Assembly (NCBI RefSeq): GCF_022846255.1 | Contig: NZ_AP025682.1 | Length of the DNA stretch: 64,000 nt | Direction: 5' to 3' (one strand) | Origin: Escherichia coli | Lineage (GTDB): Bacteria > Pseudomonadota > Gammaproteobacteria > Enterobacterales > Enterobacteriaceae | Shown here: one piece after another, positions 30,201 to 33,200 of the stretch | How positions within the stretch are numbered: the first letter of the stretch is position 1 | Layout of the letters: each line of letters begins with the position of its first letter | Made by a program: the position numbers

Positions 30201-33200
30201 AAACACGCCGAAAAGGAAAATCCGCACCTTTTCGGCGGTGGTCATCTGCGGGCCATCTTTCGGTAAAGTGGATTTCAATAGCGCCAGCTGCATACCATGC
30301 ATCAGCACGGTAAAAATCAGCGCCACGTTAACGAAAATATTCAGCGGGCGTGGGAAGGGATGCACCAGGTTGAGGATTAAAAATCCCCAAACACAGAGCA
30401 TTAACAAACGACCAATATTAATCAGCATCACTTTCTCCTTGTGCTTCGCGTTGATACAGCCGATAAGCCACCTGACCCGCCACTTTTTCCCGATGTAATG
30501 ACCAGTTTGCCGGAACAGTGGGCAGACCGTTTTCGACTTCGCTTTCGACATAAATCAGGGCTTCGTCAGCCAGCCAGCCGTTATCTTCCAGTAAATTTAT
30601 CGTCTCTTCTAACAAGCCACGGCGGAACGGTGGATCGACAAACACGATATTATGCGGTGTGCCTTTTTGCGCCAGGAATGACATCGCGTTGCTGTTCACC
30701 ACGCGTGCATTGCCTGCTTTTAGTGTCGCCAGATTCTTAATTAACTGCTGAGAAACCGCACGATCCATCTCAATCAACGTGGCCCCCGCAGCGTAGCGCG
30801 ATAACGCTTCCAGCCCCAGCGCGCCGCTCCCGGCGAAGCAATCCAGACATTGGGCGTCAACAATGACTGGAGCCAGCCAGTTAAACAACGTTTCGCGTAC
30901 GCGGTCGGTGGTGGGGCGCAGACCTGGACTATCAGGAACCGGGAGTTTACGGCCTCGCCACTGCCCGCCAATAATGCGGATTTGGCCGCTGCCGGAATGA
31001 TTCGGTTTTTTCATGATAAATTGCTCAATCCGCCAGATAACACATACTTGCAGGCGGTGATGTGAATTAAGTTAAGTGATAGACTATTTCATCATTTTTT
31101 TAGCTGCTATGTACATAGCGTTAACGCTGTGCCATGAAGCAACAGCGAGGAGTGTAGTCGCAAATGGCGAAAGAAAAAAAACGTGGCTTTTTTTCCTGGC
31201 TGGGCTTTGGTCAAAAAGAGCAGACCCCGGAAAAAGAGACAGAAGTTCAGAATGAACAACCAGTTGTAGAAGAAATCGTTCAGGCGCAAGAGCCTGTGAA
31301 GGCTTCTGAACACGCCGTTGAAGAGCAGCCGCAGGCGCATACTGAAGCCGAGGCGGAAACTTTTGCTGCCGACGTTGTGGAAGTTACTGAACAGGTTGCT
31401 GAAAGTGAAAAAGCGCAGCCTGAAGCTGTTGCTGAACCGGAAGTTATTACTGAGCCGGAAACGATAGTTGAAGAAACGCCAGCGTCAGTCATTGAACCTG
31501 AAGTTACGCCAGAGCCTGTGGCTATCGAGCGTGAAGAGCTGCCGTTGCCGGAAGACGTCAAAGCCGAAGAGGTTTCGCCAGAAGAGTGGCAGGCCGAAGC
31601 GGAAACCGTAGAGATTGTCGAAGCGGCGGAAGAAGAAGCGGCTAAAGACGAAATCACCGACGAAGAGCTGGAAGCACAGGCGCTGGCTGCCGAAGCGGCA
31701 GAAGAGGCGGTGATGGTGGTTCCTCCGGCAGAAGAAGAGCAGCCGGTGGAAGAAATCGCTCAGGAGCAGGAAAAACCGACCAAAGAAGGTTTCTTCGCGC
31801 GCCTGAAACGCAGCCTGTTAAAAACCAAAGAAAATCTCGGTTCCGGATTTATCAGCCTGTTCCGCGGTAAAAAAATCGACGATGATCTGTTTGAAGAGCT
31901 GGAAGAACAGCTGTTGATCGCCGATGTGGGCGTGGAAACCACACGTAAAATTATCACCAATCTGACAGAAGGCGCATCCCGCAAGCAGCTTCGTGATGCC
32001 GAGGCGCTCTATGGCCTGCTGAAAGAAGAGATGGGCGAGATTCTGGCGAAAGTCGATGAGCCGCTGAATGTTGAAGGTAAAACGCCGTTCGTGATCCTGA
32101 TGGTGGGCGTCAACGGTGTGGGTAAAACCACGACGATTGGTAAGCTGGCGCGTCAGTTTGAGCAGCAGGGTAAATCGGTGATGCTGGCGGCAGGCGATAC
32201 TTTCCGTGCGGCAGCGGTTGAACAGCTTCAGGTCTGGGGTCAGCGCAACAATATTCCGGTGATTGCCCAGCATACCGGTGCTGATTCCGCTTCTGTTATC
32301 TTCGACGCCATTCAGGCCGCTAAAGCGCGTAACATCGACGTCCTGATTGCCGATACCGCCGGACGCCTGCAAAACAAATCGCACCTGATGGAAGAGTTGA
32401 AGAAAATCGTCCGCGTGATGAAGAAACTCGACGTTGAAGCTCCGCATGAAGTTATGCTGACTATTGATGCCAGCACCGGGCAGAATGCGGTAAGCCAGGC
32501 CAAACTGTTCCACGAAGCCGTTGGCTTAACCGGCATCACGCTAACGAAACTGGACGGCACGGCGAAAGGCGGGGTAATTTTCTCGGTGGCTGACCAGTTT
32601 GGTATCCCTATCCGCTACATTGGTGTCGGCGAACGTATTGAGGATTTGCGTCCGTTTAAGGCGGACGACTTTATAGAGGCACTTTTTGCCCGAGAGGATT
32701 AACAATGATTCGCTTTGAACATGTCAGCAAGGCTTATCTCGGTGGGAGACAGGCGCTGCAGGGCGTTACGTTCCATATGCAGCCGGGTGAGATGGCGTTT
32801 CTGACCGGTCATTCCGGCGCAGGGAAAAGTACCCTCCTGAAGCTGATCTGTGGGATTGAGCGGCCCAGCGCCGGGAAAATCTGGTTTAGCGGCCATGACA
32901 TCACGCGTCTGAAAAACCGTGAAGTTCCGTTTCTGCGCCGCCAGATTGGCATGATTTTCCAGGATCACCATCTACTGATGGACCGTACTGTCTATGATAA
33001 CGTGGCGATCCCGCTGATTATCGCCGGTGCCAGCGGTGATGACATTCGTCGCCGGGTGTCGGCGGCGCTGGATAAAGTCGGGCTACTGGACAAAGCGAAG
33101 AACTTCCCTATTCAGCTTTCCGGCGGTGAACAACAGCGTGTTGGCATTGCCCGCGCGGTGGTGAACAAGCCCGCGGTACTGCTGGCGGACGAACCGACTG

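What the first reader, a model, noticed from the sequence alone, without database searches (positions are those of the whole stretch)
31350..31650. FtsY acidic A-domain looks longer than I recall for K-12 (512 vs 497 aa)
The N-terminal acidic region is repetitive (PE/VxEP-type repeats), and the ORF is 512 codons, suggesting repeat-mediated expansion in a region that tolerates length variation. My K-12 length is from memory, so this is a weak observation.
Basis: inference. Interest (0 to 1): 0.2.

Follow-up and report, generated by a model that had tools for sequence, protein, structure and literature searches.

The report
Long ancestral-type FtsY linker allele
This E. coli strain's FtsY (the receptor that docks protein-targeting particles at the membrane) really is 15 residues longer than in K-12, but this is a known minor allele in a floppy, dispensable linker: the long form is the ancestral one, K-12's is the shortened one, and this strain got its long piece through ordinary recombination.

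Summary
ftsY (31164..32702, +) encodes 512 aa and K-12 MG1655 ftsY encodes 497 aa. The 15 extra residues come from three in-frame indels in the acidic A domain: +12 nt (31426-31437), +30 nt (31476-31505) and +3 nt (about 31677-31679).

- It is not an expansion. The long architecture is shared by E. fergusonii, E. marmotae, E. ruysiae, E. whittamii and other Escherichia. The short form was seen only in E. coli, so K-12 carries deletions.
- Both deletions are bounded by short direct repeats (CTGAA; GAAGnnACGCCAG).
- There is no tandem repeat here. Peptide "repeats" are no more frequent than composition predicts.
- In this strain the long segment sits in a 297-433 nt recombination tract. The tract is identical to E. 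fergusonii and to E. coli EC42405 and N96. It lies in a gene that otherwise matches 498-aa E. coli alleles (MP1, Nissle).

The exact protein is already on record (WP_137502051.1), and 49 of 5,426 complete E. coli genomes carry the long segment. The segment is in a low-confidence (disorder-like), non-essential linker whose length ranges from 152 to 272 aa across Enterobacteriaceae. This is ordinary and of low interest.

The parts
31164..32702 (+). ftsY coding sequence, 512 codons plus stop (SRP receptor FtsY)
   Evidence: ORF list. Annotated as ftsY in 5,425 E. coli genomes. TIGR00064 ftsY equivalog 386 bits against a cut-off of 260.7. Pfam SRP54_N and SRP54. Exact protein is WP_137502051.1.
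31164..31781 (+). Acidic A domain (aa 1-206): low-complexity, no Pfam domain, low structural confidence
   Evidence: No Pfam match before aa 225. 28% Glu, net charge -50. AlphaFold pLDDT below 50 for aa 13-238. Literature calls it 'flexible' and 'nonessential' (PMC4602035).
31402..31834 (+). Recombination tract, maximal extent (minimal 31426-31722): identical to E. fergusonii and to E. coli EC42405 and N96, divergent from the otherwise near-identical MP1/Nissle-type gene
   Evidence: Site-by-site table. 0/433 mismatches to E. fergusonii in the tract against 39/1106 outside it (Fisher p=4e-6). 21/391 plus 42 gap positions to MP1 in the tract against 5/1106 outside it (p=6e-9).
31426..31437 (+). 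12-nt segment (CTGTTGCTGAAC) absent from K-12-type alleles, bounded by the direct repeat CTGAA (31420-31424 and 31432-31436)
   Evidence: DNA alignments; sequence context.
31438..31475 (+). Segment between the two indels, 9 substitutions relative to short-form E. coli alleles (EPEVITEPETIVEE against EVVAQPEPVVEE)
   Evidence: Other Escherichia species are intermediate (ruysiae 8 and 5, whittamii 7 and 10 mismatches to the short and long forms), so this is real allele divergence in a fast-evolving stretch.
31476..31505 (+). 30-nt segment (TPASVIEPEV) absent from K-12-type alleles, bounded by the direct repeat ACGCCAG, extended to 11/13 as GAAGnnACGCCAG (31470-31482 and 31500-31512)
   Evidence: DNA alignments; repeat families D4 and D11; sequence context.
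31674..31679 (+). Site of the 3-nt indel: window GCACAG (Ala-Gln172) against K-12 AC- - -G (Thr). The loss is K-12-type; Nissle, MP1 and SMS-3-5 keep AQ
31782..31838 (+). A/N-junction amphipathic lipid-binding helix (KEGFFARLKRSLLKTKENL, aa 207-225), identical to K-12
   Evidence: Invariant in the alignments. Described as essential in the literature (PMC3128533).
31836..32687 (+). NG domain: SRP54_N helical bundle (aa 225-290) and SRP54 GTPase (aa 308-508)
   Evidence: Pfam. Most solved FtsY chains begin at or after window aa 209. Only 1 aa differs from K-12 in this part (T307 against A).

Best explanation
The window carries a known minor allele of the essential SRP-receptor gene ftsY. Its acidic linker (A domain) keeps the ancestral Escherichia architecture. 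K-12 and most E. coli carry a derived, shortened form. That short form was made by two in-frame deletions (12 nt and 30 nt) between short direct repeats; K-12 has a further 3-nt loss. In this strain the long segment is not native to the gene's background. A tract of 297-433 nt (31402/31426 to 31722/31834) was swapped in by homologous recombination from a donor with the E. fergusonii-type allele, either E. fergusonii itself or an E. coli such as EC42405 or N96. The recipient was an MP1/Nissle-like 498-aa ftsY. The 14 extra residues lie in a low-confidence (disorder-like), highly acidic spacer between the N-terminal lipid anchor (aa 1-14) and the SecY-contacting segment. They are most likely functionally neutral. 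Shown here: the length difference, the indel positions, the allele's distribution, the mosaic boundaries and the outgroup states. Inferred: slippage or microhomology as the deletion mechanism, neutrality, and the donor's identity.
For: Length and indels. Ancestral polarity: 512-aa FtsY in E. whittamii (L007) and in the GTDB-separate 'E. coli' SCPM-O-B-8794, and in E. marmotae, E. ruysiae, E. fergusonii and Escherichia sp. E10V10. All have both segments in the alignment, with species-level divergence from one another (38-47/433 in the tract). Citrobacter werkmanii and C. braakii also have residues there. The short form was seen only in E. coli. Direct repeats at both deletion junctions. Mosaic: the window equals MP1 at 0-1 mismatch per 250 nt for 3 kb upstream and through 31401. 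In the tract it shows 21 substitutions plus 42 gap positions against MP1 but 0/433 against E. fergusonii, where about 15 are expected from the 3.5% divergence outside (P about 2e-7; Fisher 4e-6). It then returns to the MP1/Nissle type, with 1/868 against Nissle. Other long-allele E. coli have different right-hand junctions (LR-28 by 31511, SMS-3-5 by 31517), which indicates several events. Not an artefact: 49 of 5,426 complete genomes carry the segment, an independent Logan assembly (DRR102846) is identical, and the exact protein is in NCBI. Tolerance: A-region length 152-272 aa across 77 species against 298-310 aa for the rest; pLDDT about 28-31 with no secondary structure over aa 89-114; the A domain is described as non-essential and flexible, with functional elements at K-12 aa 1-14, 143-176 and about 195-207, none overlapping the variable segment.
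Against: The donor cannot be named, because E. fergusonii and two E. coli strains are equally identical over the tract. For other long-allele E. coli such as SMS-3-5, retention of an ancestral polymorphism is not excluded (8/433 against 40/1106, p=0.07). The short form's restriction to E. coli rests on about 15 Escherichia sequences and 5,426 E. coli genomes; Shigella was not sampled. No allele with only one of the two deletions was found, so their order and independence are unknown. A single complex event, or a different alignment of the 38-nt middle segment, remains possible. Neutrality is inferred, not tested. Low pLDDT is only a proxy for disorder.
Confidence: 0.85

Rival explanations
1. 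One reading: a recent repeat-mediated expansion (duplication or slippage) of PE/VxEP-type units in this strain's A domain.
For: The region is Glu/Pro/Val-rich with short imperfect direct repeats. A true expansion does exist at this hotspot in another allele: a perfect 24-nt tandem duplication in the MS1685-type 506-aa FtsY, with 19 genomes in the >=99% identity band for a probe spanning it.
Against: The extra 30 nt are only 13/30 identical in register to the adjacent 30 nt, and TRF finds no array there. k-mer repeats do not exceed composition-matched shuffles. The same long architecture occurs in at least six other Escherichia species-level lineages with species-level divergence, so it predates E. 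coli.
Confidence: 0.03
2. The long allele in this strain is a vertically retained ancestral polymorphism, with no recombination involved.
For: The long form is ancestral in the genus. For SMS-3-5-type alleles the tract's divergence from E. fergusonii (8/433) is not significantly lower than that of the flanks (p=0.07).
Against: In the window the tract is 0/433 from E. fergusonii, against 3.5% outside it. The same gene outside the tract is 0-2 mismatches from short-form E. coli alleles: MP1 0/238 in the 5' part, Nissle 1/238 and 1/868. Sharp boundaries of this kind are the signature of an imported tract.
Confidence: 0.07
3. The long and short A-domain haplotypes differ in function (spacer length or charge between the membrane anchor and the SecY-binding segment), and selection drives the repeated appearance of the fergusonii-type segment in E. 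coli.
For: The fergusonii-type core occurs in E. coli on several backgrounds with different junctions. The A domain does contact SecY and lipids.
Against: Only 0.9% of complete E. coli genomes carry it. The segment lies outside the mapped functional elements. A-domain length varies by 120 aa among related genera, and a 40-aa and a 32-aa natural deletion allele exist. The A domain is reported to be dispensable.
Confidence: 0.04
4. Sequencing or assembly artefact, or a mis-called start codon, inflates the length.
For: Start-site miscalls do occur in this cluster: P0013, 500 aa, is a 512-type allele called from an internal Met.
Against: The start is the same as in K-12. The segment is present in 49 complete genomes, in an independent assembly identical to the window, and in other species.
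Confidence: 0.01

Closest known systems
E. coli FtsY WP_137502051.1 (also BDH31441.1, GDA59798.1)
   Same: Identical over all 512 residues (exact-sequence look-up). An independent assembly from run DRR102846 carries identical DNA over the part of the locus that overlaps the compared region (1 mismatch over about 6.8 kb).
   Different: Nothing at the protein level; this is the same allele.
E. coli K-12 MG1655 FtsY (b3464, NP_417921.1, 497 aa), the experimentally studied reference
   Same: 98% identical over aligned residues. Identical N-terminal lipid helix, A/N-junction helix and G motifs. Same rsmD | ftsY-ftsE-ftsX-rpoH neighbourhood.
   Different: K-12 lacks 4 + 10 + 1 residues (window aa 89-92 and 105-114 by alignment, and Q172). 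It has EVVAQPEPVVEE where the window has EPEVITEPETIVEE. Six further substitutions: H50Q, K133N, E136A, D162E, A171T, T307A, written window>K-12.
E. fergusonii ATCC 35469 FtsY (CAQ90914.1, 512 aa) and the fergusonii-like whole-gene alleles in E. coli EC42405 and N96 (WP_001040621.1)
   Same: Same length and architecture. DNA is identical to the window over 31402-31834 (0/433).
   Different: Outside the tract the window differs from E. fergusonii at 8/238 (5' part) and 31/868 (3' part). There the window follows the common E. coli type.
E. coli SMS-3-5 FtsY (WP_001040624.1, 512 aa), the best full-length DNA match among complete genomes (99.2%)
   Same: Long architecture on E. coli-type 5' and 3' ends (3/238 and 2/868 against the window).
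   Different: Eight differences inside the tract, with an earlier right-hand switch to E. coli-type sequence (by 31517). This points to a different or older recombination history.

Membership tests
FtsY (bacterial SRP receptor; NCBIfam TIGR00064) | Score above the curated equivalog cut-off | tested here: met
   TIGR00064 386.1 bits against a cut-off of 260.7; the ffh, SRP54 and FlhF models all fall below their cut-offs.
FtsY (bacterial SRP receptor; NCBIfam TIGR00064) | N (SRP54_N helical bundle) plus G (SRP54-type GTPase) domains | tested here: met
   PF02881 at aa 225-290 (56 bits) and PF00448 at aa 308-508 (268 bits). E-value 1e-185 to 1e-295 to solved E. coli FtsY chains.
FtsY (bacterial SRP receptor; NCBIfam TIGR00064) | Enterobacterial-type A domain with an N-terminal lipid-binding sequence and an A/N-junction amphipathic helix | tested here: met
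   MAKEKKRGFFSWLGFG and KEGFFARLKRSLLKTKENL are identical to K-12. The roles of these helices are taken from the literature.
FtsY (bacterial SRP receptor; NCBIfam TIGR00064) | ftsY-ftsE-ftsX operon context | tested here: met
   ftsE begins at 32705 and ftsX follows. The order is the same in K-12 and in all fetched loci.
FtsY (bacterial SRP receptor; NCBIfam TIGR00064) | GTP-dependent docking of SRP at the membrane | not testable with these tools
   Biochemical property, inferred from one residue of difference from K-12 in the NG domain.
Tandem-repeat (VNTR-like) copy-number expansion | Head-to-tail copies of a unit with high identity, with alleles differing by whole units | tested here: not met
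   No TRF array over the indels. The 30-nt segment is 13/30 identical to its neighbour. k-mer repeats do not exceed shuffles. The feature is met by a different allele (MS1685-type, perfect 24-nt duplication).
Deletion between short direct repeats (slipped-strand or microhomology-mediated) | The missing segment begins with the same short sequence that follows it, and its length equals the repeat spacing | tested here: met
   CTGAA repeats 12 nt apart bound the 12-nt indel. ACGCCAG (11/13 with GAAGnn) repeats 30 nt apart bound the 30-nt indel. The mechanism itself is inferred.
Mosaic allele produced by short-tract homologous recombination | Clustered differences with sharp boundaries; the tract matches an alternative lineage while the flanks match the recipient lineage | tested here: met
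   (Fisher p=4e-6 and 6e-9). Formal breakpoint software was not run.

The most novel reading that the evidence does not exclude
The long (fergusonii-type) and short A-domain haplotypes are functionally distinct spacer-length variants of the SRP receptor. The recurrent import of the long core into different E. coli backgrounds would then reflect selection, for example on tethering geometry between the N-terminal lipid anchor and the SecY-binding segment, and not neutral recombination.
Probability: 0.04. Interest if true: 0.3.

Novelty: already known. Interest (0 to 1): 0.08.

Why it matters
It matters little for biology. The finding is a natural length polymorphism in a dispensable, low-confidence (disorder-like) linker of a well-studied essential protein, and the exact allele is already in public databases. 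Three modest points are worth keeping.
1. K-12's 497-aa FtsY, the form used in essentially all biochemistry, is a derived, shortened and not even modal E. coli form. In an evenly spaced sample of 40 genomes, 498 aa was the commonest length.
2. The A-domain segment around aa 89-114 is an in-frame indel hotspot and could serve as a strain marker.
3. The locus is a clean small example of a sub-gene recombination tract, identical between E. coli and E. fergusonii, lying inside an essential gene.

Tried and rejected
- Tandem Repeats Finder and direct-repeat search over the A domain found no array at the indels, only short imperfect repeats.
- A peptide k-mer repeat test against residue shuffles showed no excess, so 'repetitive' reduces to compositional bias.
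- Reading the 30-nt segment as a diverged duplicate of the next 30 nt was rejected: 13/30 identical in register.
- The Rfam scan of 30900-32000 on both strands gave one chance eukaryotic snoRNA match (17 bits against a gathering score of 41) and was rejected.
- The promoter/terminator scan found no more sites than shuffles give.
- The antisense ORF 31280..31657 (125 aa, Ser-rich) is read as a by-product of the GAA/GCN/GTN codon bias on the sense strand, with no supporting evidence for a gene.
- The literature search for a described ftsY indel or length polymorphism found nothing relevant in the held library; this is not proof of absence.
- I looked for alleles carrying only one of the two deletions among cluster members. 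None were found. The 500-aa member is a start-site miscall and the 466-aa member is an unrelated 32-aa deletion.
- Two script runs failed only because locus files were stored in one multi-record file.

Full report
**1. The observation**

The ORF at 31164..32702 (+) is 512 codons. It starts MAKEKKRGFF and ends ALFARED. It is ftsY:
- 5,425 of 5,426 complete E. coli genomes match it, under a feature annotated 'signal recognition particle-docking protein FtsY'.
- It scores 386 bits on the NCBIfam equivalog TIGR00064, against a cut-off of 260.7.
- It has Pfam SRP54_N (aa 225-290) and SRP54 GTPase (aa 308-508).
- ftsE and ftsX follow it, as in K-12.

K-12 MG1655 ftsY (b3464) is 1494 nt, or 497 aa.

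**2. Where the difference lies**

Protein and DNA alignments resolve it into three in-frame indels, all in the acidic A domain.

| Indel | Window position | Content |
|---|---|---|
| +12 nt | 31426-31437 | CTGTTGCTGAAC |
| +30 nt | 31476-31505 | encodes TPASVIEPEV |
| +3 nt | about 31677-31679 | window EAQA against K-12 ETA |

- The 38 nt between the first two indels carry 9 substitutions (EPEVITEPETIVEE against EVVAQPEPVVEE).
- The 3-nt loss is K-12-type, because Nissle, MP1 and SMS-3-5 keep AQ.
- The NG domain differs from K-12 at one residue only.

**3. Is the region repetitive?**

Only in the sense of low complexity.
- The A region (aa 1-206) is 28% Glu, 15% Ala, 12% Val and 9% Pro, with net charge -50.
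- Tandem Repeats Finder reports nothing over the indels.
- The repeat finder lists only short imperfect repeats.
- Repeated 3-, 4- and 5-mers are no more frequent than in residue shuffles: the fraction of shuffles reaching the observed value is 0.68, 0.35 and 0.33.
- The 30-nt segment is 13/30 identical in register to the next 30 nt, so it is not a recognisable duplicate.

**4. Distribution within E. coli**

A probe spanning the indels (31405-31530) matches exactly 49 of 5,426 complete genomes, or 0.9%. The top-ranked 49 full-length hits are all 1539 nt.

In an evenly spaced sample of 40 genomes the gene lengths were as follows:

| Length (nt) | Genomes |
|---|---|
| 1497 | 21 |
| 1494 | 15 |
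| 1488 | 2 |
| 1539 | 1 |
| 1377 | 1 |

A 1521-nt class also exists. It carries a perfect 24-nt tandem duplication at the same spot, and 19 genomes fall in the >=99% identity band for a probe spanning it. All variants are in frame and confined to window aa 89-180.

The exact 512-aa protein is on record as WP_137502051.1, BDH31441.1 and GDA59798.1. An independent Logan assembly (DRR102846) matches the window DNA with one mismatch over about 6.8 kb of overlap. The sequence is therefore neither an artefact nor new.

**5. Polarity: expansion or contraction?**

- FtsY of 512 aa is found in E. whittamii and in a GTDB-separate 'E. coli' lineage. It is also found in E. marmotae, E. ruysiae, E. fergusonii and Escherichia sp. 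E10V10.
- In the alignment all of these have both extra segments. E. albertii and Escherichia sp. MOD1-EC7003 have their own 8-aa gap, and Citrobacter werkmanii and C. braakii also have residues there.
- These species differ from one another at species-level divergence within the tract (38-47/433). The long architecture is therefore old, not recently spread.
- The short form was seen only in E. coli. So the long form is ancestral in the genus and the K-12-type form is a contraction.

Both missing segments are bounded by direct repeats whose spacing equals the deletion length:
- CTGAA at 31420-31424 and 31432-31436.
- GAAGAAACGCCAG at 31470-31482 and GAAGTTACGCCAG at 31500-31512.

This is the footprint expected of slipped-strand or microhomology-mediated deletion; the mechanism itself is inferred. 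Other natural alleles show the same pattern. The 120-nt deletion in PSJ-07 lies between CAGAAGAG repeats.

**6. How this strain came to have the long form**

Over 24 kb the window's best matches (99.1-99.2%) are E. coli strains that align in two or three pieces over a shorter span (23,951 nt in most). The one fetched, MP1, has a 1497-nt ftsY. A sliding comparison and a site table show a clean mosaic:

| Segment | Against MP1 | Against E. fergusonii |
|---|---|---|
| 28164-31401 | 0-1 mismatch per 250 nt (0/238 within ftsY) | 8/238 within ftsY |
| 31402-31834 | 21 substitutions plus 42 gap positions | 0/433 |
| 31835-32702 | 5/868 (Nissle 1/868) | 31/868 |

- The tract is also 0/433 from E. coli EC42405 and N96.
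- Given 3.5% divergence from E. fergusonii outside the tract, about 15 differences are expected inside it. The probability of seeing none is about 2e-7 (Fisher 4e-6).
- The contrast against MP1 gives p=6e-9.
- The tract is at least 297 nt (31426-31722) and at most 433 nt (31402-31834).

This is the signature of short-tract homologous recombination into an MP1/Nissle-like 498-aa gene. The donor cannot be named, because E. fergusonii and some E. coli carry identical sequence.

Other long-allele E. coli differ in structure. EC42405, N96, 2013C-4282 and E200086 are fergusonii-like across the whole gene. SMS-3-5 and LR-28 have E. coli-type ends and earlier right-hand junctions, by 31517 and 31511. 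There have therefore been several events. For SMS-3-5, vertical retention is not excluded (p=0.07).

**7. Likely consequence**

- No Pfam domain matches aa 1-224.
- Most solved FtsY chains begin at or after window aa 209.
- An AlphaFold model built from a 41-sequence family alignment gives pLDDT below 50 for aa 13-238. It is about 28-31 with no secondary structure over aa 89-114, while the NG domain scores 70-90.
- The literature describes the A domain as flexible and non-essential. [quoted passage not shown] The variable segment (K-12 aa 89-100) overlaps none of these.
- Across 77 enterobacterial species the region before the GFFxRL motif ranges from 152 to 272 aa (sd 27.7). The remainder is 298-310 aa (sd 0.97).

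The 14-15 extra residues are therefore most likely neutral spacer. This is inferred, not tested.

**8. Comparison with what is known, and verdict**

The protein is a full member of the FtsY family; every sequence-testable feature is met. The allele is already catalogued. Novelty: already known. Interest: low (0.08). The only non-trivial reading left open is that the two spacer haplotypes differ in function and are under selection; I put this at about 4%.

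Noticed in passing
window 33913-34412 (3' part of ftsX): A second patch where the window departs from the otherwise near-identical MP1 sequence: 16 mismatches in 500 nt, with about 9-11 per 250 nt against every comparator. 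The haplotype is common in E. coli (692 genomes at >=99%, best 99.8%), so this is another ordinary mosaic boundary.
   Followed up: partly
L006 (E. coli PSJ-07, NZ_AP027619.1) 501-1877; corresponds to window aa 140-179: A natural ftsY allele of 458 aa has a 120-nt in-frame deletion between CAGAAGAG direct repeats. It removes much of the A-domain peptide (K-12 aa 143-176) reported to cross-link to SecY. A separate 466-aa allele (P0014) has a 32-aa deletion in the same area.
   Followed up: partly
L003 (E. coli MS1685) 501-2021; same hotspot as window 31416-31445: The 506-aa FtsY allele carries a perfect 24-nt tandem duplication, CAGCCTGAAGCGGAAGTCGTTGCA (EVVAQPEA/EVVAQPEL). This is a true repeat expansion at the same site, on the short-form background. 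19 genomes fall in the >=99% band for a probe spanning it.
   Followed up: partly
L092-L095 (E. coli 2013C-4282, EC42405, N96, E200086), ftsY at 3260-4798: These E. coli carry an ftsY that is E. fergusonii-like across the whole gene: 5-8/868 from E. fergusonii in the 3' part, against 27-32/868 from the window. This suggests larger exchange between E. coli and E. fergusonii at this locus. Its extent into the flanks was not mapped.
   Followed up: no
window 31280-31657, minus strand: A 125-aa Ser-rich antisense ORF lies opposite the A-domain coding region. It is explained by the sense-strand GAA/GCN/GTN codon bias, which leaves few antisense stops. There is no evidence for a gene.
   Followed up: partly
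whole window; 20000-44000 tested: No complete RefSeq E. coli genome is closer than about 99.2% over 24 kb, although the exact FtsY protein is in NCBI from a 4.94-Mb contig. The source strain therefore appears not to be in the complete-genome set searched.
   Followed up: partly
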